Sequence record: MT446411.1
Length of the DNA: 64,000 nucleotides
Source of the DNA: Escherichia virus TH40
Strand: one strand, 5' to 3'
Part shown: positions 9,259-59,468 of the stretch, piece by piece
Layout: each line of letters opens with the position of its first letter
Position numbering within the stretch: position 1 is the first letter of the stretch
Program-made: the position numbers and the translations under genes
Notes under the pieces: generated by a model
Database searches by the model: none
The model's input: the letters and a program-made list of their open reading frames with translations, nothing else
Told to the model about the DNA's origin: nothing

Positions 9259-10208
9259 TTCATTTCCCCAGCCAGTTGAGCAAACAGATAAGTCAAGTGA
9301 ACTTCGGTATTAGCTGCAATGCCATGGTACTGATTATTCTCACCCACAATCTCATACATACGGATGATGCTTGCACCAGTCAGTTTGCCGTACATTTCAT
9401 CAGCCAGCTTTGCAATGAAGTTTGAATAATCATTTGCGTGTTTAGGAGCCAGACCACGAAGAACTTTAAAGTTACGGTCCTTAAGGGCATCAATCACGTC
9501 ATCAATTGGCGTGCGATTGTTTGTCACGATGCTTAGAATACCGGAATCGATAACACCCTTTGCAGAGTAACGGTCAAGCTCATTAATTGTCTTACGCAGG
9601 TCCGGGAAGTTATGCTTAACCAGAGCAGCAACAACTTTCAGGTCTTCGATTTCAACGCCTTCGTTTTTACATATCGCGACTGCACGATGAATCATCTCTT
9701 TCATCATAGTGGTCTGGTCAGCTGGAGTTGCTTCACCAAACTTAATTACGCGACAACGAGACTGCAGCGGAGTGATGATGCCATCGATATTGTTCGCGGT
9801 CATAATGATTGAACAGTTGCTCGAATAAGCTTCCATAAAGCTACGAAGGTGTCGTTGTGATTCAGCCAGACCCGCGCGGTCGAACTCATCGATAACAATT
9901 ACCTTGCGGCGACCTTCGATTGATTTAGATGATGCAAAGCGAGTCAATTCATTACGCACAAAGTCAATTCGGCAATCGGAGCCGTTAACAAACAGCATAT
10001 CAGAATTCGTATCTGCGCACATAGCTTTTGCAACTGTTGTCTTACCAGTACCAGGGGAACTACTGACTAGAATCAAGTTAGGAATTAAACCTTTTTTAAC
10101 AATCGCCTCTAATGTTTCTTTATCATGAGCCGGGAGAATACACTCTGATAATGTACCTGGGCGGTATTTTTGTTCCCACATGAATTCTTTGTCATTAACC
10201 GTTAACAT
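9249..10208 (-). CDS. 44: Clamp loader AAA+ ATPase subunit (gp44-like)
   Basis: 319 aa; Walker A SSSPGTGKTT; Walker B VIVIDEFD; SRC motif LQSRC. Confidence 0.93.
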   Translation of the reverse strand: MLTVNDKEFMWEQKYRPGTLSECILPAHDKETLEAIVKKGLIPNLILVSSSPGTGKTTVAKAMCADTNSDMLFVNGSDCRIDFVRNELTRFASSKSIEGRRKVIVIDEFDRAGLAESQRHLRSFMEAYSSNCSIIMTANNIDGIITPLQSRCRVIKFGEATPADQTTMMKEMIHRAVAICKNEGVEIEDLKVVAALVKHNFPDLRKTINELDRYSAKGVIDSGILSIVTNNRTPIDDVIDALKDRNFKVLRGLAPKHANDYSNFIAKLADEMYGKLTGASIIRMYEIVGENNQYHGIAANTEVHLTYLFAQLAGEMKWL

Positions 10209-10264
10209 ATATTTTCCTCATATTAGTTTCTACTTTGTACTCCATGGGGCCGAAGCCCCATTTA

Positions 10265-10960
10265 TTAATCTTGGAATTCGTGGCTAGAGCCTTGTTCCAT
10301 TGCAATCACATAGCTTGCTTGTGTGCCTTCAAACTTCGTAGCAAATTTATCATCTTTCGCCCAAAGCATAACACGGTAATCAGCCGGAATCATTTTCATG
10401 TTCAGTTTGTTAATGATAAATTTAAACGCTGCATCACCTTCGTAGTCGCCGCACACCAGGGAATACAATGGACGCGCTAACTCTTTATCTTCGAGCTGAT
10501 TATAACCATGGATAACAATCTTACCGTCTTTGTTGGTGATTGCAAAAGTATCCAGAGACAAACCACCAGCCACACGCAGAAGTTGTTGCAGGTCACTACC
10601 TTTCAGGTCGAAAATAACCTTAGCTACCGGGAAAGGAATCTTCTTAGCAGGGAACACGATAGTGCTCGGGTCTGCTGCAGGCCAGTGAATCGTTGAACGT
10701 TGGTCTTTGATAATGATGTTTGATGCGTCTTCAGCCAGAGATACTTCAGCTTGGTCAGTTACCAGGCCCAGGATACTTAAGAAGCCGTTCAGGTCATAAA
10801 TTGCGGCTTCAAAGTCGATTGTATCATTGATTTCGGCTTCGCCATATGACGCTCCAGTTACGGAACGAGTCAGGATGGTATTACCTGGCTTAAGCATAAT
10901 GCCAGAGTAAATGGAAGTGAAGTTTTTCAGAACTGCGATAGTGTCTTTAGAGAATTTCAT
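10265..10960 (-). CDS. 45: Sliding clamp (gp45-like)
   Basis: 231 aa; strongly resembles T4 gp45 as recalled; synteny. Confidence 0.88.
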   Translation of the reverse strand: MKFSKDTIAVLKNFTSIYSGIMLKPGNTILTRSVTGASYGEAEINDTIDFEAAIYDLNGFLSILGLVTDQAEVSLAEDASNIIIKDQRSTIHWPAADPSTIVFPAKKIPFPVAKVIFDLKGSDLQQLLRVAGGLSLDTFAITNKDGKIVIHGYNQLEDKELARPLYSLVCGDYEGDAAFKFIINKLNMKMIPADYRVMLWAKDDKFATKFEGTQASYVIAMEQGSSHEFQD

Positions 10961-10990
10961 TTAATTACCTTTTATTCAAATCAAAATTAA

Positions 10991-11422
10991 TTAAGCAACA
11001 ACTGCCATTTGTTTGCGGATGGCTTCTGGAAGAGATTCAATATACTCTGGAAGTTGTGCAGCAATAATAGAACCAGCTTGCACCAGATGGTCGTCAGAGT
11101 TAACGCAATAATCATCTTCAAGACGTTCGGAACCATCACGGTCGATAACCAGTTTAGCACCAGCAGCTAGTGAATCGTTGTAGTGATTACGCATCAGTTC
11201 AATCCACTTATCAGATACATCAGTATCAATCACACCATACAGCATGAATTTAATTTCTTGCGGCAGAGACTGCAGACGGGTAGCAGATGCTTCATCGCAT
11301 GCCAGGACCCAGGATTTACGAACACGGTTTTGGTTATGCGGGTTAGCGTCAGTGCGGATGGTTTTAACTTGGATATCTTTAGCAGTTACGTTGTTCATAA
11401 TATTCTCTCTATTCATTATCAA
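10991..11422 (-). CDS. rpbA: RNA polymerase-binding protein RpbA-like
   Basis: 143 aa ORF in the rpbA position between 45 and 46; assignment by synteny only. Confidence 0.5.
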   Translation of the reverse strand: MIMNRENIMNNVTAKDIQVKTIRTDANPHNQNRVRKSWVLACDEASATRLQSLPQEIKFMLYGVIDTDVSDKWIELMRNHYNDSLAAGAKLVIDRDGSERLEDDYCVNSDDHLVQAGSIIAAQLPEYIESLPEAIRKQMAVVA

Positions 11423-13784: not shown

Positions 13785-14800
13785 GGTTGCACCTCAAGAT
13801 ATAATTTGTTAGCCAATGCTTTGAGAGCTTTTGATTCTTTCTCATTGGCATCAGGCAATGCATCGATATATTCTGCCATCATATCAGTTAAGCGTTTTAT
13901 GTCTAACTCTTCTTCGGAGTCAGTCGTATCAACACTGTTATCAACCTTATTGACAACACGCAATTCATGCACACGCTTTTCTAATTCGGATTCGAACTTG
14001 GTCAGGTCTTTATCGACTTTTTCTACAATAACACGGACTGATAAGTCTTTGAAGTCGTCGTAGTTAATAGTTTCGTTTGGATAGAAAATCTTCCGATGCC
14101 AGGTGGTTTCATTCGGAATAAATTTCATCTCTTCGGTTTCGGTATCAAATTCCCAGAACCCACGCGGGTCGTTCTCATCACCCGCTGTTAATGTCCATGG
14201 TGTCCCGATGTACTTAACGTTCGCAGCTTCTGAAATGGTATGGAAGTGCCCAGACCAAACTTGTTTGTACTTCTTAAGGAAATCAGGCTCAAGCCCGTGG
14301 GATTTCAGTCCTTTATAGAAATAAAACCCGGTTAATTCCCAGTGACCGATGCAATATTCAGCCCCAGAAGTTTTGATGTGTTGATGAATGTCAGTCGCGT
14401 TCTCGTCACACATCCATGGAATCATATCAATCTGGCAACCGTCAAAATCAACAGTCGTTGGCTTATCGTAGATTTTAACATGGTCATACTTATTCAGGAG
14501 CTCAGTGATAGCATTAGGATGAATCTTATTCTTCAGATTCATGTCATGGTTCCCGACTATCGTGTGCATAGTAATTCCTGCTTCACGAAGGAGTTCCATA
14601 ATCTCACGGCTGAATTCCATCGTCTTATGCGTTACGGCCTTACGGACGTCAAAAATATCACCATACTGAATCCAGACTTTAATTCCATTCGCTTTGGAAT
14701 ATGCAATCGCCTGTAAAATACCATCACGTTGAATGTTTTGAGCCCATGGGTCGTCAGCTTTGACCCCTAAGTGCCAATCACCTAAATTTAAAATTTTCAT
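13781..14800 (-). CDS. 47: Mre11/SbcD-like nuclease (gp47-like); start taken at MKILNLGDWHLG
   Basis: Phosphoesterase motifs GDWHLG, GDIFD, GNHD; ORF track extends to 14827 but internal Met matches T4 gp47 N-terminus. Confidence 0.88.
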   Translation of the reverse strand: MKILNLGDWHLGVKADDPWAQNIQRDGILQAIAYSKANGIKVWIQYGDIFDVRKAVTHKTMEFSREIMELLREAGITMHTIVGNHDMNLKNKIHPNAITELLNKYDHVKIYDKPTTVDFDGCQIDMIPWMCDENATDIHQHIKTSGAEYCIGHWELTGFYFYKGLKSHGLEPDFLKKYKQVWSGHFHTISEAANVKYIGTPWTLTAGDENDPRGFWEFDTETEEMKFIPNETTWHRKIFYPNETINYDDFKDLSVRVIVEKVDKDLTKFESELEKRVHELRVVNKVDNSVDTTDSEEELDIKRLTDMMAEYIDALPDANEKESKALKALANKLYLEVQP

Positions 14801-15436
14801 AAGCCAAGCACCGTTATCGCAATGCAAAATAAAATTACTGAAATGAACCCGTCAGGAGTAGAAAAGAATCCTATCCAACAAGCTCTTGTGAATGTGTAGA
14901 ATGCCATGAATAGCACGACATATCCTAAAAATAATTCCATATACTCTCCTCAGTTGGTTCATTTTATCATCCCGAATATAAAGCAAAAAAGGAAGCACTA
15001 GGCTTCCTTTCCAATTAATACACCGTACAGAGGTTCGTGAGAAGACCTGAACTTGATAGGCTTATAGGTAATAGTACCTTCATTTTCTGCTTTAATACGA
15101 GCAGCTTCAAATTGAAGTATCATCTCATTTTTGTCAGATTTAATCTTATCAAAATCCGTCGAATTCGTCATTCATATAGCCTCTTAAACTTTTTCGTATT
15201 CGTCATTCATAAGTTTAAAAATCCGGGTGTTCGTCTTCAAAGCAACCGATATTCATCGCTGCCACCACTTCTTAAGTTGATGTGAATCCACCCAAACCTT
15301 GGCCACGGGCTCAATCTGAAAAATACCATCAGAATACTGCCCAACCATTTTATATTCGGTTTCGGTCTGCTTGATACAGATATTACCATATGAGCGAAGT
15401 CTGAAAGCGGCTCCAACAAGAAGCCGTTTAAAAGGT

Positions 15437-15748
15437 TTATTTACTAATGCCATTTACGATTTCCCAAATTTGTTTGCGAGTAGTTTCCCACATCAACTTA
15501 ATCAGGTCTTCCGTAACTGGTTGACGGTAAATTCCACGCAGTTTAACTAAAGCATATTTGTATGCTTCAAAATTGTTTTCCAGCACTGCGCCTTGAGCAT
15601 GTTTATTCAGACGTGCAATTTCACGAGCATTCTTTTTCAGAATCTTCGCTGCTTGACTGGTTGCTTCGAGCGCGTTCGCTTCTTCGAGACGTTCCTGTGC
15701 TTCTTCAATCTGCTTATCGGTCAGTTGAGAAATATCTGGAGCTTGCAT
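15437..15748 (-). CDS. Hypothetical protein (103 aa)
   Basis: ORF track; between 47 and 55. Confidence 0.4.
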   Translation of the reverse strand: MQAPDISQLTDKQIEEAQERLEEANALEATSQAAKILKKNAREIARLNKHAQGAVLENNFEAYKYALVKLRGIYRQPVTEDLIKLMWETTRKQIWEIVNGISK

Positions 15749-26882: not shown

Positions 26883-27048
26883 TCATAATTGCCAAAGCAA
26901 ACCAAAGCAGAGGCCATACTAGTGTAATGAATACTGCATCATAGCTTGATTCAATTTCGATTGGATTCCAATCACCCGATTTATGAATGATAATGGTCGT
27001 CATGAATCCTAGCACAAAGTAAAGGAGAATAAAACCTACAATTTCCAT
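26833..27048 (-). CDS. Hypothetical small membrane protein (71 aa)
   Basis: ORF track; two hydrophobic segments. Confidence 0.35.
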   Translation of the reverse strand: MEIVGFILLYFVLGFMTTIIIHKSGDWNPIEIESSYDAVFITLVWPLLWFALAIMIVFWPIAKFYEKLFGL

Positions 27049-27132
27049 ATTAACCTACAATATTTGAGAATATAAGCCACAGAATACCTGTGGCAACGAA
27101 TACATAACCAAGAACGGCGAGCCATTCCATAA

Positions 27133-27981
27133 TTAATCCTTAAGCAATTTAATAACGTTCATCAGTTTATGACGTTCAGCTTTTGCTGCACTGTTCAGTC
27201 CTGACAGGCGGAAAATTTCATCATCTTGTTGCTGGATGGTGATGTTAAGTTCTTCAATCTGTTTAGTGAAAAGCTCAATTTGCTCTGAATATTTTTCATT
27301 GCTTCGCACTGGAACAGGTTCCATTTTAGGAGCTTGTTCTGAAGGACTCTCAACTACAACTCGGTCTTTAATTTGGCATAATTTAATACGCTGGACGCCT
27401 CCAGTTTTAACATCATAGAAGGTAAGAACCCCATGATGTTCGAGTTCAGACAAAGCCAAACGGAGGTGGAATTTCCAGTTTTCGTATTGACATCCGCTAA
27501 AAGAAGAAATACTGTATTCGCCTTCATTTTGACCTTTAATAACATTAAATAGTTTGTAATCTAAAGAATTATTGGTTTTAAAGGTCATTTGTTTATCTTG
27601 ACCGCTTGCCAGACGAGCACCAAGAGCTAATAAACGTCGTTGGTTAGTATGAAGGTCTTTGACCACTTCATCAAATGTCATGGTGCTAATCGCACGACCA
27701 TAAAGGTCATAACCTTTATTATAATTTTTAAGTAAAATTTTGGCATTAGCACGAGACAACATACCCGAACGTTGAAGAGATTTCATGACTCGGTCTTCTA
27801 ATGTAAGCAAGCCCGTTGTTTTATTAAAGATTTTAGTGAATTCAGCAGAATTAGTACAAACATTGAACTTATTCCACATCATATATAAAACATTTAAAAC
27901 CACATCTTTAGTGCTCGGAATACTGTTAAATTTAACAACTTTTTTAACTTCAGAACGAATTTCATTAATTGCTTGTGACAT
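27133..27981 (-). CDS. Hypothetical protein (282 aa) with C-terminal coiled coil
   Basis: ORF track. Confidence 0.5.
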   Translation of the reverse strand: MSQAINEIRSEVKKVVKFNSIPSTKDVVLNVLYMMWNKFNVCTNSAEFTKIFNKTTGLLTLEDRVMKSLQRSGMLSRANAKILLKNYNKGYDLYGRAISTMTFDEVVKDLHTNQRRLLALGARLASGQDKQMTFKTNNSLDYKLFNVIKGQNEGEYSISSFSGCQYENWKFHLRLALSELEHHGVLTFYDVKTGGVQRIKLCQIKDRVVVESPSEQAPKMEPVPVRSNEKYSEQIELFTKQIEELNITIQQQDDEIFRLSGLNSAAKAERHKLMNVIKLLKD

Positions 27982-28043
27982 ATTATTTTCCTCAATAGAT
28001 TATCAAAGGTCAGAACCATTATACCATCCTTGGTATAAAGCGT

Positions 28044-28568
28044 TTATGCGAGAACCGTCTTTAAACGCTCTTCAAACTTCTGAAGGAGTACCTGGCGCTC
28101 TACTCTTTGTTTGGTATAGGTTTCAATACGCTCTGAAGTGAGATTGTATTGTTCATTAACTGATTCCCGCATGAATTCAGGAATCTCTTTACATGCTTTG
28201 ATTTCATTAAACTTATCAAGCACTGCTTGTTGTTCAGCAATCAGACCATCATAATATTGGATATCTGATTTGATGTTTTGTACATCAGATTCAGTAGGCA
28301 TATTTTTCTTTGCTCTTGCCGCCTGGTACTCAGCATTAGTCTCTCTTGACCAGAACAAAGAGCGGTTTTTGTTGGTGTTTTTATACACATCAACAATACC
28401 AACTGAATCAACATTCACAATCCAGTTCCAGGCGTTTTTATAAGTTTGACCACCTGATACTGTAATCTCACCCGCACAAGCAACATCATTAAAGAACTTG
28501 CTTTGTGCTTCTGATTTAAAATTACCATTATTGTAATTAATCAGATTAAAGATTGATTTAGCTTCCAT
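28044..28568 (-). CDS. Hypothetical protein (174 aa)
   Basis: ORF track; preceded by type-B promoter-leader. Confidence 0.5.
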   Translation of the reverse strand: MEAKSIFNLINYNNGNFKSEAQSKFFNDVACAGEITVSGGQTYKNAWNWIVNVDSVGIVDVYKNTNKNRSLFWSRETNAEYQAARAKKNMPTESDVQNIKSDIQYYDGLIAEQQAVLDKFNEIKACKEIPEFMRESVNEQYNLTSERIETYTKQRVERQVLLQKFEERLKTVLA

Positions 28569-28574
28569 TTTATT

Positions 28575-28634
28575 CTCCAGTATTTGGTAACTCAGTATGG
28601 GAACATTATACGTCTATCCCCATACCATGTACAC
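28575..28634 (-). promoter_or_regulatory. Type-B early promoter-leader cassette
   Basis: Forward tatttggtaactcagtatgggaacattata...tgtacac read directly; near-identical copies at 29160, 48663, 49172, 49683. Confidence 0.45.
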
Positions 28635-28636
28635 AT

Positions 28637-28939
28637 TTAATTAAAAGTTCTTTCAGTATTTTCACCACTGAACCAGGCGCTCTTAACGGCTTGCTGTGCG
28701 CGTTGTAGCTGTTCTGCCATGTAAACACTAAGGGCTTCTGCTTTTCTTGTTCTGTGAGCTTCTGCGGCGACTATTTGCAACTTATCCATCATGATAAGAG
28801 CTTTACATTTCTCCTTCAGAGCATATCGCTTCTTCTCTTCTGGGGTTTTGACCATCCCTCTTAACTTGTGCATTTTCAACTTAAAATGGTCAGCAGATTT
28901 CAGACATGCCTCAATCATGTCAAGTTCATACTTTTTCAT
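28637..28939 (-). CDS. Hypothetical protein (100 aa)
   Basis: ORF track. Confidence 0.4.
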   Translation of the reverse strand: MKKYELDMIEACLKSADHFKLKMHKLRGMVKTPEEKKRYALKEKCKALIMMDKLQIVAAEAHRTRKAEALSVYMAEQLQRAQQAVKSAWFSGENTERTFN

Positions 28940-28945
28940 AATTCC

Positions 28946-29152
28946 TCACTTGCGACGACGTTTTGGTAATGGTTTAGGGAAGAACATTGCTTTACCTGCA
29001 GGGGTCAAAGTCACATGCAAAGCATTACCAATACCAAGGGATGCTTTAACCAGACCTTTAGCTTTTAACTCACCAAATGCTTGACGTTGTTCAGGGTCAC
29101 GAGTGTTAACCATCAGACCTTTTTCACCAGCAGCTTTGATTAATTCTAACAT
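28946..29152 (-). CDS. Hypothetical basic protein (68 aa)
   Basis: ORF track; preceded by type-B promoter-leader. Confidence 0.45.
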   Translation of the reverse strand: MLELIKAAGEKGLMVNTRDPEQRQAFGELKAKGLVKASLGIGNALHVTLTPAGKAMFFPKPLPKRRRK

Positions 29153-29159
29153 TTTATTC

Positions 29160-29223
29160 TCCGTTTGTTTATTTGGTAACTCAGTATGGAATCATTATGC
29201 ATCATGACCATCTGGTTGTACAC
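29160..29223 (-). promoter_or_regulatory. Type-B early promoter-leader cassette
   Basis: Forward tttatttggtaactcagtatggaatcattatgc...ttgtacac read directly. Confidence 0.45.
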
Positions 29224-29269
29224 ATATACTAAATAAAAATACTTAATAAAACCATAAAGGAGAAAGTTT

Positions 29270-30016
29270 ATGATTTTATCCGGAAGAACTGTTGATGAAC
29301 TCAATGAAAAAGTCCAGGCTGCCTTGGCTGATAATTGGTATTTGTTTGGTTCTACTATGGTGTTGCCGAATACCCCTACAGATAGCAAAGAGCGTTTTTT
29401 CCAAACTATGTCCAGCTCGGAAACTCAGATACCGGGTCCGCCTGGTCCCAAAGGAGAACCGGGTGTACCAGGACCAAAAGGAGACCCAGGTGGGGATGGA
29501 AAATCTTCTTATCAGATATGGCTTGACTTGGGAAATACAGGAACTGTTGATGATTTTTTAACTGATACAGCAGGAAAGAGGGAAAAATCCGAGGTGTTTT
29601 GGAGTGGTATAAACGTTCTATTAACTAATGGTACGACTTCAAACATAATTAGTGTTTTAAAGGGGATTCCACCGACTGCAGGGACTCTATCTCCGTTTTT
29701 TAGAACCACTGATGATAAGTTGTGGCCATATAACCAAGACAGAAGCCTAATGTTTAAACTCAACCTTATTGGTAATTTTGCAGGAGCCTCGCAAGCTCGA
29801 AGTATAACATTAAATTTCGTTGGAACCAACGGAAACACTTATATACAGAATCGTCCGGAAAATGCTACAGATATTTTGTCTTTTACAACGTTCTTTAGCA
29901 TTGATAAAGATGGGGCAATGGCAACCAATGGTACAGCTATAACTGTTATGCCAAATGGCGGCAACTTTACAATAACCTCTGCATTGTTAGTAGCCGAACA
30001 AACAGCGACTTCATAA
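29270..30016 (+). CDS. Collagen-like repeat protein with tail-fibre-type motif (plus-strand island)
   Basis: 248 aa; GPPGPKGEPGVPGPKGDPGGDG Gly-X-Y run followed by KSSYQIWLDLGNTGTVDDFL; AAAGGAGAAAG SD; opposite strand to all neighbours. Confidence 0.6.
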   Translation: MILSGRTVDELNEKVQAALADNWYLFGSTMVLPNTPTDSKERFFQTMSSSETQIPGPPGPKGEPGVPGPKGDPGGDGKSSYQIWLDLGNTGTVDDFLTDTAGKREKSEVFWSGINVLLTNGTTSNIISVLKGIPPTAGTLSPFFRTTDDKLWPYNQDRSLMFKLNLIGNFAGASQARSITLNFVGTNGNTYIQNRPENATDILSFTTFFSIDKDGAMATNGTAITVMPNGGNFTITSALLVAEQTATS

Positions 30017-30017
30017 A

Positions 30018-30038
30018 CAAAAAAGGGCCGTATGGCCC
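30018..30038. terminator. Bidirectional terminator hairpin GGGCC-GTAT-GGCCC between convergent genes
   Basis: Forward acaaaaaaGGGCCGTATGGCCCtt; U-run is on the minus-strand transcript side. Confidence 0.45.
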
Positions 30039-30281
30039 TTAGATTGCACTCCAAAAATTATGGAATCTTATAGTATTGATAGCCCAGTTAACAAACCTGC
30101 GAGTTTGCTTGGGAGTTGGTTTGCATGTGTACTTGATATTGTCCCGACGACCAGTTTCACGACAGACTGCTTCGAGATACCAGCGGCGACCTTTATGAGG
30201 TCTTCCATACGATAAGAAGACCTTGATTTCCTGGTTATCGATAATAGGAATTGTGGTTGTCAAGATATACCTCCTCAACAA
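30039..30281 (-). CDS. Hypothetical basic protein (80 aa)
   Basis: ORF track; overlaps the end of the nucleotidyltransferase gene. Confidence 0.35.
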   Translation of the reverse strand: MLRRYILTTTIPIIDNQEIKVFLSYGRPHKGRRWYLEAVCRETGRRDNIKYTCKPTPKQTRRFVNWAINTIRFHNFWSAI

Positions 30282-31245
30282 ACTTGTCCCAGAACTTCAT
30301 GTCCACCTTCGCAGGCATACCGTTCTTATGAGCCCAGATGGCATTAGTTTCGACTTCATCAACGATAGCTTCAAGTTCAGCCTGTACATCTTTAAAAGCA
30401 TGTAGCCCTTGTTTGATTTCAAGGATAAACGGTGCTGTTCGTAAAGGATATTGAAGGTCACCGGTCATATAAATTTCCTTCAGCTGATATCCAGCACGAT
30501 AAGCATGGCTCAGAGCTTTCCAATCAATGCCTTCATTAGCTTCGGCCTTACGAGCACGTTCACCATATTCAGCATCAAGTTTATTCAGAGATTGCTTGAG
30601 CTCGATTAAGGACAAAGTGGTTTGGTATTTACGACCGAGGACAGTATAGAACGTTTGAGGACCTGTTTTCTCATGGTTATGGAATACCCATTCACAGAAC
30701 TCGTTTTCGGGGAGTCGGTGCTTAATATCTTCTACCTTAGTTCGACGTTGCTTAACAGAACCATCTTCTTGATAATCGACCCACTGTTCAGGAATCTGGT
30801 TAACTATAGCTAGTACACCACGCAGTGCAGCCAGACGAGAACCTTTAACACCATATTTGGAAGCTTGCTTACGGACGTACCCTAAATAGGCTTTCATGTT
30901 AGTTGTATAGAACCGCGAACGGTTGTCTTGAATAAACTTCCATACATCTGGTAAATCGGATTTGACTACCAGGTCAGCCGGTGTGTGAATCATATCCAGG
31001 GCAACGGTTTCACCTTCGGCTGCCAGTTTAAAGAAATATTTCAGGCTATAAAGTTCATGGTCAACATCGTCTTTTGTGTTCTTTGATGCAGTGTTATTCG
31101 TGCTCAGGTTTGTATGGTTCATCGCGGTTCCGAGCAGGATATCTCGCGGATGTGGAACAAAGATTTCTTTAAAATCGACATCAGATTCTGGAGTACTTGT
31201 TCCATAAAGGTGGGAGCCAAAATATCCCTTCATAACTGTTTTCAT
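30235..31245 (-). CDS. Pol-beta-superfamily nucleotidyltransferase-fold protein
   Basis: 336 aa; N-terminal GSHLYGTSTPESDVDF matches the G[SG]-x(9-13)-D-x-[DE] NTase signature. Confidence 0.6.
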   Translation of the reverse strand: MKTVMKGYFGSHLYGTSTPESDVDFKEIFVPHPRDILLGTAMNHTNLSTNNTASKNTKDDVDHELYSLKYFFKLAAEGETVALDMIHTPADLVVKSDLPDVWKFIQDNRSRFYTTNMKAYLGYVRKQASKYGVKGSRLAALRGVLAIVNQIPEQWVDYQEDGSVKQRRTKVEDIKHRLPENEFCEWVFHNHEKTGPQTFYTVLGRKYQTTLSLIELKQSLNKLDAEYGERARKAEANEGIDWKALSHAYRAGYQLKEIYMTGDLQYPLRTAPFILEIKQGLHAFKDVQAELEAIVDEVETNAIWAHKNGMPAKVDMKFWDKFVEEVYLDNHNSYYR

Positions 31246-32048
31246 TATTCACCTCTTTCATAGTCTTCAATAAATTGCATAATTAAACGCTGATAATTGG
31301 ATTTAGGGTATCCTAATTTACTAATATGAGTACCAAAAGCTCCACGCTTTGGCCTATTTAATTTAAGCCATAACGAGTAAAGCAAATCATAATCTTGCCA
31401 CTGTTTTCCTATTCTTTGTTTTGCTTTAGAAGCATCAGATTGTCTCTTTTTAGTCTCTGGATTATTTAAAGATTTCTTAACAGCATTCGAATGACGTTCT
31501 CTAACATCTGGCCGTTTAAATGCTTCTTTAATCGCTTTAGAAATTTTCTCTTTAACTTCAGGACGGTTTTGGGCTTCTATTTGAACAGCCGACATTTTAT
31601 CCTTTATTTTGGGCAGACTCATAGTTATAGAGCGTTTGTTTCTATATTCTTTGGTCTTCCATATTTCTTTCATTGTATTCGAATGAATTTCTGAAAATTT
31701 TTCTCTAACTAATTGGTATCCCCTAGAAGTTAATTTAAGGTTTCTTCCCAGAGAATCTTCGCCGAAGTTATAAAATGACCACCAGGCATAAATTAATCCA
31801 GAAGAATCGGAATGAATTCTAGCTAGAAGCCAGTGTGCTATAAAATGTTCTCTAGCTGTCAACAGAACCAAATTATTAGGTTCATCACTCCCGCCAATAC
31901 ATGACGGGATTATATGATGGGACTCTGTATAAAAATTTAATTTGGATTTGTCTAATCCTCTAAGTTTACCTCTTTGGATTAGACTATCATAAAGCTTGAT
32001 ATAATTCATTATGAATTTGTTTTGTTCTCGAAGTGGATTACCGGACAC
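31245..32048 (-). CDS. HNH homing endonuclease with NUMOD-like C-terminal repeats (mob-like)
   Basis: 267 aa; HHIIP..GGSDEPNNLVLL..EHFIAHW HNH core; repeated RPEVKEK / RPDVRERH / NPETKKR modules; AT-rich. Confidence 0.8.
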   Translation of the reverse strand: MSGNPLREQNKFIMNYIKLYDSLIQRGKLRGLDKSKLNFYTESHHIIPSCIGGSDEPNNLVLLTAREHFIAHWLLARIHSDSSGLIYAWWSFYNFGEDSLGRNLKLTSRGYQLVREKFSEIHSNTMKEIWKTKEYRNKRSITMSLPKIKDKMSAVQIEAQNRPEVKEKISKAIKEAFKRPDVRERHSNAVKKSLNNPETKKRQSDASKAKQRIGKQWQDYDLLYSLWLKLNRPKRGAFGTHISKLGYPKSNYQRLIMQFIEDYERGE

Positions 32049-57078: not shown

Positions 57079-57106
57079 ATAGCCTCCTAATAAATATTGA
57101 TATACT

Positions 57107-57118
57107 TATTTATAAATG
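57107..57118. promoter_or_regulatory. Overlapping divergent late-promoter boxes (minus TATAAATA for gene 4; plus TATAAATG for gene 53)
   Basis: Forward cttatttataaatgga; T4 late promoter consensus TATAAATA is established knowledge. Confidence 0.55.
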
Positions 57119-57126
57119 GAGGCTTT

Positions 57127-57729
57127 ATGCTTTTTTCATTTTTTAACCCAATTGATTATGATGCTAAAACAATCAGAAAAAACTCGGCATCATTAACGAA
57201 AGAAGATGTCTTAAGCATCCCAATGACTGACATCTTCAGAAACTATCGTGCGTATTTTGATAAGGTTGCGGTTAATTATACACCGAAAACATATTACATC
57301 GCCGGAGCTCCGAGACCTGAAGAACTTGCATATCAGCTCTATGGTAATACTCAACTCTATTGGGTTCTCCTTATGCTTAATAATATCTATGACCCGTATT
57401 ATGGTTGGATATGTTCACAAGAATCATCATATCAGGCATCAATTCAACGCTATTCGAATATAGGTGGTAATCAGGTTCTTTATCATGTAAATGAAGATGG
57501 TGAAAAATTCTGGAATCTTGTTTCTTATCCTGATAATCCATACACATGGTATGATAAAGGTGATAAGAACAAATTATACCCACAGTATGAAGGCCCATTA
57601 GCTGCAGTGGATATCTACGAAGATGCTATTCGCAAAAATGAATATAAACGAGAAATAAAGATAATCGACCCTAATGATATCGAATCATTTATTTCGGCAT
57701 TAATCCGCGAGATGGAGAAGGCGCTATGA
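57127..57729 (+). CDS. 53: Baseplate wedge protein gp53 (start at MLFSFFNPIDY)
   Basis: ORF track gives 57097..57729; internal Met with GGAGG SD matches T4 gp53 N-terminus as recalled. Confidence 0.8.
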   Translation: MLFSFFNPIDYDAKTIRKNSASLTKEDVLSIPMTDIFRNYRAYFDKVAVNYTPKTYYIAGAPRPEELAYQLYGNTQLYWVLLMLNNIYDPYYGWICSQESSYQASIQRYSNIGGNQVLYHVNEDGEKFWNLVSYPDNPYTWYDKGDKNKLYPQYEGPLAAVDIYEDAIRKNEYKREIKIIDPNDIESFISALIREMEKAL

Positions 57730-59468
57730 TTAATATGTCAGATAGTGTAAGTTGGTTCGTCGGTGTTGTCGAAGACCGAATGGACCCACTTCAACAAGGT
57801 CGTGTTCGTGTTCGGGTATGGGGTATGCATCCATATGAGAAATCACAAGGGCCTGTAAAAGGTATCAGAACTGAAGACCTACCATGGATGTCCGTACTGA
57901 TGCCAACATCATCTGCATCGGTTTCCGGTATTCAAACTGCCATGACTGGTATGGTACCAGGGACTCAGGTATATGGTCACTTTTTGGACAAGTGGAAGCT
58001 CAATGGATTAGTCCTTGGTACATATGGCTCAGCATCAAGACAGAAGGCAAACACAACAGAAGGTTTTAGTGACCCCACAGGGCAATATCCACTTTATGTG
58101 GGCAATGATGCTGCTGCGCTTAACCGAGGCGGTGAGGTCGGTTATGATGACACTTCAAACGTAATACAAGATGCAAACACTGATGTAGGTATTAATCCAG
58201 ACGGGTTAGATTTAAGCCAAGTTAAGCCTGATGATAATCCTAATTTCACAATAGAAAACATGCTTCACCGCGATGAAGGTCTTCGTCTGAAAGTATATTG
58301 GGACACTGAAGGTTATCCTACTATAGGTATAGGACACTTAATTACACCACAACCTATTAGAGATATGAATCAGATAAACAAAATATTATCTAATCAAATA
58401 GGCCGTGAAGTTAAAGGTAACCCTGGTGCAATATCAATGGACGAGGCTTCTAAGTTATTCCAAGAAGACCTTAAAAAAGTCCAAAATGATATAGGTAGAC
58501 ATAGTGTTGTAGGTCCGGTTTACAATAAAGAAAACCGTTCAAGACAAATGGCTCTTGAAAACATGGCTTTCCAAATGGGATTAGGTGGACTTGCTAAATT
58601 CCGTGGAATGCTTAGTGCAATGTTAATAGGCGATTATAAAAAGGCATTTGAAGAAGCTCGCAATTCAGTATGGTTTAACCAAACTAAAGGACGTGCATCA
58701 AGGGTATCAATGATTATCCTCACCGGTAATATGGAATCATACGGTATTATGGCCCCAAAAGAAATGGAATTTAATGGGCGTTCTTATAGGATGATTCAAA
58801 CCTTTGCAGCCCCTACAAATTCCGACCCGGCCGACCCGTGGACTCCAGAAGATACGAGGATTCTGTTTAAAGAGCCAGAATCAAGTTACAAGGGCGAATA
58901 TCCTTATGTGCAGACAATGCAAACTGAAGGCGGTCATATTCAGGAATTCGATAACACTCCAGGACAAGAACGTTATCGACTGATTCATCCGACCGGTTCC
59001 TATGAGGAAGTTGCACCAGATGGTCGTAAGACTTCGAAGACGGTAGCCGATGGCTATTATATGACCCAGGGCGATTCAAGCACTTATGTTGGTGGGAATA
59101 ATAAAGTCAACGTTGGTGGTGATGAAACCTATTACAATATGGCTAACGTTCGTCGTCAGACCGATGGAAACGAAACCATCCATATTCGTGGTAACGAAGA
59201 GAAAACTGTAGAAGGTAATGGAACACTCAGAGTTAAAGGCAACGTTACTGTTATTGTTGAAGGAAATGCTGATGTTACTGTTAAGGGTGATGCGACTACC
59301 TTAGTAGAAGGTAATGAAACTCGCACGACTAATGGTAATTTAAACTGGACTGTAAATGGTACCGTATCTTGGACTTGTGCAGGTGCTTGGTCCGAGACTA
59401 TGGCTTCAATGAGTTCTATTACATCTAGTCAATATACTATTGATGGTTCGAGGATTGACATTGGCTAA
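57726..59468 (+). CDS. 5: Baseplate hub/cell-puncturing protein with lysozyme domain (gp5)
   Basis: 580 aa; internal T4-lysozyme-like domain (HRDEGLRLKVYWDTEGYPTIGIGH); C-terminal VxGxxxxx beta-helix repeats. Confidence 0.93.
   Translation: MINMSDSVSWFVGVVEDRMDPLQQGRVRVRVWGMHPYEKSQGPVKGIRTEDLPWMSVLMPTSSASVSGIQTAMTGMVPGTQVYGHFLDKWKLNGLVLGTYGSASRQKANTTEGFSDPTGQYPLYVGNDAAALNRGGEVGYDDTSNVIQDANTDVGINPDGLDLSQVKPDDNPNFTIENMLHRDEGLRLKVYWDTEGYPTIGIGHLITPQPIRDMNQINKILSNQIGREVKGNPGAISMDEASKLFQEDLKKVQNDIGRHSVVGPVYNKENRSRQMALENMAFQMGLGGLAKFRGMLSAMLIGDYKKAFEEARNSVWFNQTKGRASRVSMIILTGNMESYGIMAPKEMEFNGRSYRMIQTFAAPTNSDPADPWTPEDTRILFKEPESSYKGEYPYVQTMQTEGGHIQEFDNTPGQERYRLIHPTGSYEEVAPDGRKTSKTVADGYYMTQGDSSTYVGGNNKVNVGGDETYYNMANVRRQTDGNETIHIRGNEEKTVEGNGTLRVKGNVTVIVEGNADVTVKGDATTLVEGNETRTTNGNLNWTVNGTVSWTCAGAWSETMASMSSITSSQYTIDGSRIDIG

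What the first reader, a model, noticed from the sequence alone, without database searches (positions are those of the whole stretch)
29270..30016. Plus-strand collagen-like ORF with a tail-fibre-type motif inside the minus-strand early region
This is the only plus-strand gene between the window start and gene 53. It has its own strong SD and ends at a hairpin shared with a convergent minus-strand gene. The product has a Gly-X-Y collagen-like run (GPPGPKGEPGVPGPKGDPGGDG) followed by KSSYQIWLDLGNTGTVDDFL, which resembles the collagen-plus-conserved-motif arrangement seen in some phage tail-fibre and receptor-binding proteins. It sits next to a homing endonuclease and a nucleotidyltransferase gene, so it looks like an acquired accessory gene.
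Basis: partly seen in the sequence, partly recalled or inferred. Interest (0 to 1): 0.7.

Follow-up and report, generated by a model that had tools for sequence, protein, structure and literature searches.

The report
Collagen-stalked knob fibre, probable head decoration
A T4-like phage carries an optional late gene for a three-part fibre: a small domain related to a known capsid-binding domain, a short collagen stalk, and a TNF/C1q-fold knob of the kind that tips the tail needle of phage Sf6. It is more likely a head-surface adhesin than the "tail needle knob" that databases call it.

Summary
The ORF at 29270..30016 (+, 248 aa) is real and matches the description. The window is a Gaprivervirus (T4-like). 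In the annotated relative vB_EcoM_RZ this is the only + strand gene between gp065 and gene 53.

The protein has three parts:
- Residues 1-50 are a divergent DUF1737 domain. A 2026 cryo-EM preprint on phage phi24B shows that DUF1737 binds capsid hexons.
- Residues 56-98 are seven Gly-X-Y triplets plus a helical "KSxYQxW" stalk module. Its length and copy number vary among homologues.
- Residues 99-244 are an Sf6-type knob (Pfam PF16532, E 2.6e-32; PDB 3RWN, TM 0.88-0.89). All four L-glutamate-site residues are conserved.

Orthologues in five other T4-like genera are likewise lone opposite-strand genes near nrdC.11. They carry an exact or near-exact T4 late promoter motif 22-28 nt before the ATG and a hairpin right after the stop.

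Best reading: a dispensable, late-expressed trimeric fibre attached to the virion, probably to the head, with an adhesin knob. Nobody has shown where it sits. Relatives encode Hoc, which fills the hexon centres in T4.

RefSeq already labels relatives "tail needle knob", and T4-like knob homologues were reported in 2013. The N-terminal anchor assignment is the new element. Interest is moderate.

The parts
29224..30034 (+). Window-specific cassette (promoter-like motif, SD, ORF, most of the hairpin), defined by comparison with phage VR7
   Evidence: blastn of the window against VR7. The flanks align at 28900-29223 (96.9%) and 30035-31255 (87.2%). VR7 holds 397 bp with ORF099c/100c in between.
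29234..29241 (+). T4 late-promoter-like octamer TAAAAATA (one mismatch to TATAAATA), 28 nt before the ATG
   Evidence: The motif is not significant alone (108 one-mismatch sites in the window against 134 expected). Orthologues have exact TATAAATA (AnYang, C6, fHe-Yen9-01, PEi20) or CATAAATA (RB43, IME-CF2) 22-25 nt before their ATG.
29257..29262 (+). Shine-Dalgarno AAGGAG, 7-nt spacer to the ATG
   Evidence: Read directly from the sequence.
29270..30016 (+). ORF, 248 aa plus stop: DUF1737-like domain, collagen/helical stalk, Sf6-type knob
29270..29419 (+). Residues 1-50: divergent DUF1737 domain (strand, helix, strand, long loop, strand), the putative virion (capsid) anchor
   Evidence: Pfam DUF1737 scores 17.7 bits for the window fragment (cut-off 24). 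All 10 family members tested match, best E 2.7e-6. A profile search returns proteins that pass the Pfam DUF1737 cut-off. hhalign to the phi24B gp84 N-terminus gives E 3.8e-5. AF2 topology is E2-5, H8-20, E24-31, E43-48. BFVD structural neighbours are named DUF1737.
29435..29500 (+). Residues 56-77: seven Gly-X-Y triplets (collagen-like stalk), about 60% GC
   Evidence: pLDDT is below 50 in the monomer model. Length varies among homologues and the run is absent in the RB43 type.
29501..29563 (+). Residues 78-98: KSSYQIWLDLGNTGTVDDFLT helix-loop-helix stalk module
   Evidence: AF2 predicts helices at 80-86 and 93-101. Modules of this type recur several times in P0014 and P0025 and are also found in the collagen-like phage proteins P0011 and P0012. 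PHROG tail-fibre families match this stretch.
29564..30001 (+). Residues 99-244: Sf6-type knob (TNF/C1q-like jelly roll), presumed trimer
   Evidence: Pfam PF16532 at 112 bits. phrog_1030 at E 8.5e-67. PDB 3RWN at E 1.3e-31. Foldseek TMt 0.88-0.90, rmsd about 2 A. The L-glutamate-site residues are E108, K163, S210 and D212 (after PMC3741392).
30023..30040 (.). GC-rich hairpin AAGGGCC-GTAT-GGCCCTT shared by the convergent genes; the T-run is on the minus strand only
   Evidence: Equivalent hairpins follow the stop codon in the other seven T4-like orthologue loci (RZ, AnYang, C6, fHe-Yen9-01, PEi20, RB43, IME-CF2) and in the siphovirus Carvaje. They have T-runs on both sides in RB43, fHe-Yen9-01 and PEi20.
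30039..30281 (-). Convergent small ORF (DUF7279); its stop codon lies inside the hairpin stem. Context only, not part of the cassette
   Evidence: Pfam DUF7279 at 34.5 bits, cut-off 24.5. Not annotated in RZ.

Best explanation
The gene encodes a dispensable, late-expressed, fibre-like virion protein.

Shown:
- The C-terminal 150 residues are an Sf6-type knob of TNF/C1q fold, with the inter-subunit L-glutamate site intact.
- The middle is a short collagen run plus a helical module. The number and length of these units vary between homologues, as expected of a spacer stalk.
- The N-terminal 50 residues belong to the DUF1737 family.
- Orthologues carry T4 late promoter motifs.

Inferred:
- gp55-RNA polymerase transcribes the gene late from the opposite strand of the early nrdC block, and the transcript ends at the shared hairpin.
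- Three chains trimerise through the knob, which nucleates the collagen triple helix.
- The DUF1737 domain anchors the fibre to the virion surface, most probably the gp23 capsid lattice. This is by analogy with phi24B gp84, whose DUF1737 domain forms a hexameric plug on hexon pores. Six anchors could carry two trimers.
- The knob is then held roughly 10 nm out and acts as an adhesin for a host-envelope or environmental (for example glycan) ligand. That would make it functionally parallel to Hoc or T5 pb10.

The whole unit (promoter, gene, terminator) behaves as a cassette in the variable nrdC.9/nrdC.10-nrdC.11 slot.
For: Knob:
- Pfam PF16532 E 2.6e-32; PDB 3RWN/4K6B E 1e-31.
- The AF2 knob has pLDDT around 90-97.
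- Foldseek gives TMt 0.88-0.90 to 3RWN/4K6B. The next hits are phi812 spike knob, ExsFA, C1QL, PRD1 P5, EDA, collagen X NC1, adiponectin and TNF-like lectins.
- E108, K163, S210 and D212 are conserved. They match the residues listed in PMC3741392.

Fibre logic:
- The N-domain and knob are conserved while the stalk varies from 0 to more than 20 G-X-Y triplets and from one to several helical modules.

Knob as a distal tip elsewhere:
- It occurs as T7-tail-fibre N-domain plus knob in P0105 and as the Sf6/HS1 needle tip.

Late expression:
- Exact TATAAATA lies 22-25 nt upstream in AnYang, C6, fHe-Yen9-01 and PEi20.
- One-mismatch versions occur in RB43, IME-CF2, the window and RZ.
- In the siphovirus Carvaje the gene directly follows terL. 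In Aeromonas 44RR2.8t a knob protein sits in the gp23-gp24 head operon.

DUF1737 anchor:
- Searches support the family assignment.
- Capsid-binding function comes from bioRxiv 10.64898/2026.04.10.717836.
- Jk06 JK_26P has two DUF1737 domains, a collagen run and a beta-rich C-terminal domain, and is encoded next to the major head protein gene.

Virion association of a knob homologue in a myovirus:
- Sajous1 gp119 gave 16 spectra from CsCl-purified virions.

Accessory cassette:
-.
Against: - No experiment places this protein, or any full-length homologue, in a virion.
- The window's own DUF1737 score is below Pfam's cut-off (17.7 against 24 bits). hhalign probability to phi24B gp84 is only 71%.
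- The anchoring Tyr42 of gp84 aligns to Thr37 here. It is Tyr in the fHe-Yen9-01, RB43-type, P0014 and P0025 homologues.
- DUF1737 also occurs in giant viruses and in thousands of single-domain proteins, so capsid binding may not be universal.
- RZ, RB43 and 44RR2.8t all encode Hoc, which occupies the hexon centre in T4. The phi24B-type site may therefore be taken.
- The same N-domain occurs in T4-like myoviruses and in roughly 57-60-kb Klebsiella siphoviruses with different capsids.
- There is a 6-fold (anchor) against 3-fold (stalk, knob) mismatch.
- The window's promoter motif has one mismatch and is not significant alone.
Confidence: 0.5

Rival explanations
1. It is a tail- or baseplate-attached accessory receptor-binding fibre. 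The N-domain docks on a tail component and the knob contacts the host envelope during adsorption, widening or tuning host range.
For: - The knob is the distal tip of tail organelles elsewhere: the Sf6/HS1 needle and T7-type fibres (P0105).
- The phi812 central-spike knob is the best structural hit outside the Sf6 type.
- The stalk matches tail-fibre PHROGs.
- The 44RR2.8t knob protein carries a Phage_fiber_rpt repeat.
- The Kuttervirus knob-only protein is found in virions.
Against: - The N-domain matches only DUF1737, not any tail-fibre attachment domain in Pfam or PHROGs.
- It occurs once per genome, so no other fibre gene shares the adaptor.
- Related DUF1737-collagen and knob genes sit next to capsid genes, not tail genes.
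- The gene moves between myoviruses and siphoviruses whose tails share no obvious docking site.
Confidence: 0.25
2. It is a soluble, non-virion trimeric lectin-like protein made late and released at lysis. It might coat host debris or receptors, or bind environmental glycans. The DUF1737 domain would serve only for oligomerisation or transient association.
For: - TNF-like lectins (BC2L-C N-domain, PLTL) and C1q domains are structural neighbours.
- In phi24B the functional domains of the DUF1737 protein are proposed to be cleaved off the capsid after release.
- The gene lies outside all structural modules in T4-like genomes.
Against: - There is no signal peptide or cleavage motif comparable to the SISSP linker of gp84 (seen by reading).
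- An N-anchor, variable stalk and distal knob is the typical build of an attached fibre.
- A knob homologue was found in purified Kuttervirus virions.
Confidence: 0.15
3. It is a true 'tail needle knob', as RefSeq/PHROG annotation says: the tip of the central tail spike or needle.
For: - Annotation of relatives as 'tail needle knob'.
- phrog_1030 at E 8.5e-67.
Against: - T4-like phages have no P22-type needle. In the relative RZ the gene 53 cluster encodes the gp5 hub/lysozyme and a PAAR tip protein, and the gp5-sized ORF is present in the window (57726..59468).
- The protein lacks the gp26/gp9 N-terminal plug and coiled-coil shaft. Only residues 99-244 align to Sf6 gp9.
- The label is carried over from the domain name.
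Confidence: 0.03

Closest known systems
Sf6 gp9 / HS1 tail-needle knob (Pfam PF16532; PDB 3RWN, 4K6B)
   Same: The C-terminal domain is homologous: about 38-45% identity, TM 0.88-0.90, and the same four L-glutamate-site residues. A trimeric TNF/C1q-like jelly roll sits at the distal end of an elongated protein.
   Different: There is no P22/Sf6 needle N-terminal plug or coiled-coil shaft. The host virion is a contractile-tailed T4-like phage. The stalk is collagen-like and the N-terminus is DUF1737-like.
phi24B gp84 (NanS-p esterase) N-terminal DUF1737 decorating capsid protein (bioRxiv 10.64898/2026.04.10.717836)
   Same: Same domain family at the N-terminus and the same topology: one helix, three strands and a long beta2-beta3 loop. 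An unrelated 'payload' sits C-terminal to the anchor. The gene lies outside the head module and is late-expressed.
   Different: The payload is a collagen stalk and knob, not an esterase. The anchoring Tyr42 is Thr here. The capsid is T4-type prolate with Hoc, not T=9. No proteolytic linker motif is evident. Capsid binding is untested.
PRD1 spike protein P5 and the metazoan C1q/collagen X/adiponectin family
   Same: The same logic: an N-terminal anchor, a short collagen-like triple helix and a C-terminal trimeric TNF-fold head. All are structural neighbours of the model (1YQ8, C1QL, 1GR3, 6U66). That PRD1 P5 has a collagen-like segment is from my own knowledge.
   Different: There is no detectable sequence homology (7-16% identity in the structural alignments). 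PRD1 P5 sits on five-fold vertices of a membrane-containing virus.
T4 Hoc and T5 pb10 (hexon-centre decoration proteins that display adhesion domains)
   Same: The proposed role is the same: a dispensable capsid-surface protein that presents a binding module away from the shell.
   Different: The folds are unrelated (Ig-like domains; the capsid-binding domain is C-terminal in Hoc). Hoc and pb10 are monomeric. Relatives of this phage encode Hoc as well.
Jk06 JK_26P and related T1-like 'collagen-like proteins'
   Same: DUF1737 domains, about 8 G-X-Y triplets and a beta-rich C-terminal domain. Encoded beside the major head protein gene.
   Different: There are two tandem DUF1737 domains. The C-terminal domain is not PF16532. 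hhalign of A3 to its first domain is weak.

Membership tests
Phage_tail_NK (PF16532), Sf6-type knob domain | Sequence match above the curated Pfam cut-off | tested here: met
   112.3 bits against a cut-off of 27, residues 99-244. 3RWN E 1.3e-31.
Phage_tail_NK (PF16532), Sf6-type knob domain | TNF/C1q-like jelly-roll fold superposable on 3RWN | tested here: met
   AF2 model (knob pLDDT about 90-97) against 3RWN/4K6B: TMt 0.88-0.90, rmsd 2.0-2.4 A. This is a predicted structure, not a solved one.
Phage_tail_NK (PF16532), Sf6-type knob domain | Inter-subunit L-glutamate site residues (Sf6 E146, K200, S248, D250) | tested here: met
   E108, K163, S210 and D212 are conserved. Residue list from PMC3741392.
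Phage_tail_NK (PF16532), Sf6-type knob domain | Homotrimer | not testable with these tools
   Only monomer prediction was available. Trimer is inferred from 3RWN (three chains) and the collagen run.
P22/Sf6-type tail needle protein (gp26/gp9) | N-terminal tail-plug domain and trimeric coiled-coil shaft preceding the tip | tested here: not met
   Only residues 99-244 align to gp9. The N-terminus is DUF1737-like and the stalk is collagen-like.
DUF1737 (PF08410), capsid-binding decoration domain of phi24B gp84 | Sequence match above the curated Pfam cut-off | tested here: inconclusive
   The window fragment scores 17.7 bits (13.7 in the full protein) against a cut-off of 24. All 10 family N-domains match at E<=1, best 2.7e-6.
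DUF1737 (PF08410), capsid-binding decoration domain of phi24B gp84 | Reciprocal profile link to accepted members | tested here: met
   The A3 profile against 1.84 billion proteins retrieves 51-146-aa proteins that score 25.6-65 bits on PF08410. hhalign to gp84 residues 9-50 gives E 3.8e-5, probability 71%.
DUF1737 (PF08410), capsid-binding decoration domain of phi24B gp84 | Fold of one helix plus three antiparallel strands with an anchor loop | tested here: met
   AF2 predicts E2-5, H8-20, E24-31, loop, E43-48 with pLDDT 79. BFVD neighbours named DUF1737 have TMq 0.61-0.83. No DUF1737 structure is in the PDB copy.
DUF1737 (PF08410), capsid-binding decoration domain of phi24B gp84 | Anchoring aromatic 'tooth' (gp84 Tyr42) in the beta2-beta3 loop | tested here: not met
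   The aligned column is Thr37 in the window. It is Tyr in the fHe-Yen9-01, RB43-type, P0014 and P0025 homologues.
DUF1737 (PF08410), capsid-binding decoration domain of phi24B gp84 | Binds capsid hexons | not testable with these tools
   Needs virion proteomics, cryo-EM or binding assays.
Collagen triple helix (PF01391) | Uninterrupted Gly-X-Y repeats rich in Pro | tested here: met
   Seven triplets at residues 56-76 plus Gly77; 9 Pro in residues 55-73. The Pfam score is below cut-off because the run is short (17.9 against 27.2). Homologues P0008 and P0025 pass.
T4 late gene (gp55-dependent promoter) | TATAAATA octamer shortly upstream of the coding start | tested here: inconclusive
   The window has TAAAAATA, one mismatch, which is not significant alone. 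Four orthologue lineages have the exact motif at -22 to -25. No transcript data.
Hoc-like head decoration | [quoted passage not shown] | tested here: not met
   No Ig or Hoc match in Pfam or PHROGs. At most a functional analogue.

The most novel reading that the evidence does not exclude
DUF1737 may be a portable capsid-docking module. T4-like, T1-like and other coliphages would use it to plant C1q-style fibres (collagen stalk plus TNF-fold knob) on their heads. Here, two trimeric fibres would arise from one six-membered anchor ring, or the fibre would compete with Hoc for hexon centres. That would give T4-like phages a second, swappable head-borne adhesin system, which current annotation hides under the name 'tail needle knob'.
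Probability: 0.35. Interest if true: 0.6.

Novelty: new variant of a known kind. Interest (0 to 1): 0.45.

Why it matters
If the fibre sits on the head, T4-like phages would have an exchangeable capsid adhesin besides Hoc, built like complement C1q. This bears on three things:
- how phages adhere to mucus, debris or host surfaces;
- phage display and vaccine scaffolds, because a small N-terminal tag that docks onto capsids is useful;
- annotation, because dozens of RefSeq entries call this a 'tail needle knob' in phages that have no needle.

It would also extend the phi24B finding on DUF1737 from one podovirus to several virion types.

Tried and rejected
- **PDB sequence search with the N-domain profile.** It gave only GCN4-type helix noise.
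- **Foldseek of the N-domain model against PDB.** Nothing below E 1.8. The NanS-p crystal structures lack the DUF1737 part, so no direct structural comparison with a solved DUF1737 was possible.
- **AFDB50.** It was not available.
- **The window's one-mismatch late-promoter motif as evidence on its own.** Rejected, because such sites are no more frequent than chance.
- **Foreign origin by base composition.** Rejected (GC 0.411 against 0.394).
- **Anticorrelation with the VR7 collagen protein ORF196w in the hoc region.** That gene occurs in only three phages, so no test was possible.
- **Literature searches for virion proteomes of carrier phages** (fHe-Yen9-01, Pseudotevenvirus, RB43). No data on this protein were found.
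- **Bhardwaj 2011 (PMC3162447).** It is not held in the paper library.
- **hhalign of the N-domain profile to the first DUF1737 domain of Jk06 JK_26P.** Weak (probability 8%). The link to that protein rests on Pfam and the fold search only.
Full report
**What is there**

The window is a T4-like phage of the genus Gaprivervirus (Straboviridae). The 2.4 kb around the finding is 96.5% identical to phage TH54 and about 93% identical to vB_EcoM_RZ and others.

The ORF at 29270..30016 (+) is present as described: ATG start, 248 codons, and the two quoted peptide strings verbatim. AAGGAG lies 7 nt before the ATG. A 7-bp/4-nt hairpin at 30023-30040 follows the stop. The hairpin's T-run is on the minus strand. 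There it ends a small convergent ORF, 30039..30281, which matches Pfam DUF7279. That ORF's stop codon lies inside the stem.

In the annotated relative RZ the orthologue (gp126) is the only + strand CDS between gp065 and gene 53. The neighbours are nrdC.11, an RlaP-type nucleotidyltransferase, and beyond it a mobD-like HNH gene.

**Domain anatomy**

*C-terminus.* Residues 99-244 match Pfam Phage_tail_NK (PF16532) at 112 bits and phrog_1030 at E 8.5e-67. [quoted passage not shown]

An AlphaFold2 model built on 63 homologues gives the knob pLDDT of about 90-97. It superposes on 3RWN/4K6B with TM 0.88-0.90 and rmsd about 2 A. The next neighbours are the TNF/C1q superfamily: phi812 central-spike knob, ExsFA, C1QL, PRD1 P5, EDA, collagen X NC1, adiponectin and the TNF-like lectins BC2L-C and PLTL.

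Leavitt et al. 2013 (PMC3741392) identified four residues that hold L-glutamate between subunits: Sf6 E146, K200, S248 and D250. They are conserved here as E108, K163, S210 and D212.

*Middle.* Residues 56-77 are seven uninterrupted G-X-Y triplets. Residues 78-98 (KSSYQIWLDLGNTGTVDDFLT) are predicted as two short helices.

Among homologues the collagen run ranges from none (RB43 type) to more than 20 triplets. The helical module is repeated several times in P0014 and P0025. The same module occurs in the collagen-like phage proteins P0011 and P0012 and matches tail-fibre PHROG families. This is how a spacer stalk behaves.

*N-terminus.* Residues 1-50 are conserved in every full-length homologue and occur once per genome.
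- As an isolated fragment the window's copy scores 17.7 bits on Pfam DUF1737 (cut-off 24).
- All ten family N-domains tested match that family and no other consistently, best E 2.7e-6.
- A profile of these N-domains, searched against 1.84 billion proteins, retrieved 51-146-residue proteins. Eight of the ten I scanned pass the Pfam cut-off for DUF1737 at 25.6-65 bits.
- The predicted fold is strand, helix, strand, long loop, strand. Its structural neighbours among viral proteins are dominated by entries named 'DUF1737 domain-containing protein', with TMq 0.61-0.83.

**Why the N-terminal domain matters**

A cryo-EM preprint on the Stx phage phi24B (bioRxiv 10.64898/2026.04.10.717836) reports on the DUF1737 domain of the NanS-p esterase gp84. 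It describes the domain as one helix and three antiparallel strands, with a Tyr42 'tooth' on a loop. The domain forms a hexamer seated on the central pore of capsid hexons, and the authors rename it a decorating capsid protein.

I located that gene (vb_24B_21, HM208303 23314..25251). The N-domain profile aligns to its residues 9-50 by hhalign at E 3.8e-5, probability 71%. Tyr42 aligns to a column that is Tyr in the fHe-Yen9-01, RB43-type, P0014 and P0025 homologues, but Thr37 in the window.

No DUF1737 structure is in the PDB copy, so the fold comparison rests on predicted models and the preprint's description.

**Genomic behaviour**

Full-length homologues (N-domain, stalk, knob) occur in 41 of 50,697 phage records. 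Among T4-like phages they are found in:
- Gaprivervirus (eight close relatives);
- Dhakavirus (AnYang, C6);
- Tegunavirus (fHe-Yen9-01);
- Kanagawavirus (PEi20);
- Pseudotevenvirus (RB43, IME-CF2, Miller and others).

In each T4-like locus examined the gene is a lone gene on the strand opposite to the surrounding early block. Where the neighbouring genes are named (AnYang is not), it lies close to nrdC.11. Homologues also occur in roughly 57-60-kb Klebsiella siphoviruses (Carvajevirus), where the gene directly follows the large terminase gene.

T4 has nrdC.10 and nrdC.11 with no + strand gene between them. VR7 and SP18 carry other small genes in the slot. Relative to VR7 the window-specific DNA is 29224..30034: promoter-like motif, SD, ORF and most of the hairpin.

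Between the window and RZ, identity is 99-100% over ORF098c, the intergenic region and the knob ORF (four differences, two synonymous). It drops to 89% just past the hairpin, 85% in nrdC.11 and 92% in nrdC.6. That is a recombination mosaic with a boundary at the hairpin. Base composition is unremarkable.

**Expression timing**

The T4 late promoter is the octamer TATAAATA (established T4 biology).
- The exact octamer lies 22-25 nt before the ATG in AnYang, C6, fHe-Yen9-01 and PEi20, although the sequences around it differ.
- RB43 and IME-CF2 have CATAAATA at -22.
- The window and RZ have TAAAAATA at -28.

The window's one-mismatch site means nothing alone: 108 such sites against 134 expected by chance. 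The six exact sites in the window all lie on the minus strand at 35-57 kb, and four of them fall in the 53-57 kb stretch that corresponds to the internal-head-protein to gene-4 block annotated in RZ. Conservation of the octamer at a fixed distance across genera is the evidence for late transcription. There are no transcript data.

**Where the protein goes**

This step is inferred. For a virion location:
- the expression is late;
- the build is anchor, stalk and knob;
- the knob serves as the distal tip of the Sf6 needle and of T7-type fibres (P0105 is Phage_T7_tail plus knob);
- a knob-only homologue, Sajous1 gp119, gave 16 spectra from CsCl-purified Kuttervirus virions (PMC10892097).

For the head specifically:
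- the DUF1737 homology;
- the Aeromonas phage 44RR2.8t knob protein (Phage_fiber_rpt plus knob) is encoded between the major capsid protein and vertex protein genes;
- Jk06 JK_26P has two DUF1737 domains, eight G-X-Y triplets and a beta-rich domain, is encoded beside the major head protein gene, and is mis-annotated 'DNA polymerase'.

Against the phi24B-type site:
- RZ, RB43 and 44RR2.8t encode Hoc, which fills hexon centres in T4;
- the anchor Tyr is missing here;
- a six-membered anchor ring must be reconciled with trimeric stalks. Two trimers per ring is possible, and Sf6 resolves a similar 3:6 mismatch at its needle (PMC9728967).

**Verdict**

But it missed the N-terminal domain and the late-promoter evidence, both of which point away from 'early region' and away from the tail.

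The gene family is not new. RefSeq already labels relatives 'tail needle knob', and Leavitt et al. 2013 listed RB43, phage 31, 44RR2.8t and ViI-like homologues as proteins of unknown function.

Three things are new here:
- the DUF1737 assignment and the head-decoration hypothesis that follows from it;
- the modular-stalk analysis;
- the conserved late-cassette organisation.

I rate it a new variant of a known kind, of moderate interest. Confidence is about 0.85 that it is a late, trimeric knob-tipped fibre, about 0.65 that it is virion-bound, and about 0.45-0.5 that it is anchored on the capsid.

Noticed in passing
window 30039-30281 (-): An 80-codon ORF matches Pfam DUF7279 (34.5 bits, above cut-off). 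It overlaps the 3' end of nrdC.11, and its stop codon lies inside the shared hairpin. It is not annotated in the close relative RZ. VR7ORF100c sits at the equivalent position.
   Followed up: partly
window 31245-32048 (-): A mobD-like HNH homing endonuclease gene (weak Pfam HNH, 17.8 bits) lies directly after nrdC.11, as mobD does in T4. It is absent at this position in RZ and VR7, so it is a second presence/absence polymorphism within 2 kb of the knob cassette.
   Followed up: partly
window 26999-31245 compared with L001 (RZ): Identity is sharply mosaic: 99-100% from ORF098c through the knob ORF, but 85-92% in nrdC.6, the DUF7279 region and nrdC.11. The switch occurs at the hairpin, which suggests recent recombinational exchange of this segment.
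   Followed up: partly
window 35080, 50387, 50875, 53366, 54660, 57107 (all minus strand): All six exact TATAAATA octamers in the window are on the minus strand. Four lie at 53-57 kb, the stretch that corresponds to the internal-head-protein to gene-4 block annotated in RZ. Gene 53 on the + strand has only one-mismatch versions upstream (AATAAATA at 57089, TATAAATG at 57111).
   Followed up: no
L009 (VR7) 9817-11100 (+), next to hoc and a second Hoc-like gene: VR7ORF196w is a 427-aa collagen protein (Pfam Collagen 141 bits, no DUF1737) annotated as 'tail fiber protein'. It sits in the head-decoration (hoc) region. Its C-terminal domain is found in only three phages (VR7, VR5, ESCO10). RZ lacks it, the second Hoc-like gene and the second gp24 copy.
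   Followed up: partly
L017 (Jk06) 14751-15587 (-): JK_26P is annotated 'DNA polymerase'. It actually has two DUF1737-like domains, eight G-X-Y triplets and a beta-rich domain, and it lies beside the major head protein gene. phrog_22681 ('DNA polymerase'), which also weakly hits residues 1-75 of the window protein, probably carries the same mislabel.
   Followed up: partly
L013 (Aeromonas phage 44RR2.8t.2) 2066-2932 (+): A 288-aa knob protein with a Phage_fiber_rpt repeat and no DUF1737 is encoded between the major capsid protein and capsid vertex protein genes.
   Followed up: partly
P0126 (520 aa) and P0131 (151 aa): Metagenomic proteins carry the same N-domain fused to other payloads. P0126 has two tandem N-domains followed by repeated '...IQWR...' modules. 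P0131 has one N-domain followed by an Ala/Thr/Val-rich repetitive segment. This suggests the domain is a general anchor for displayed modules.
   Followed up: no
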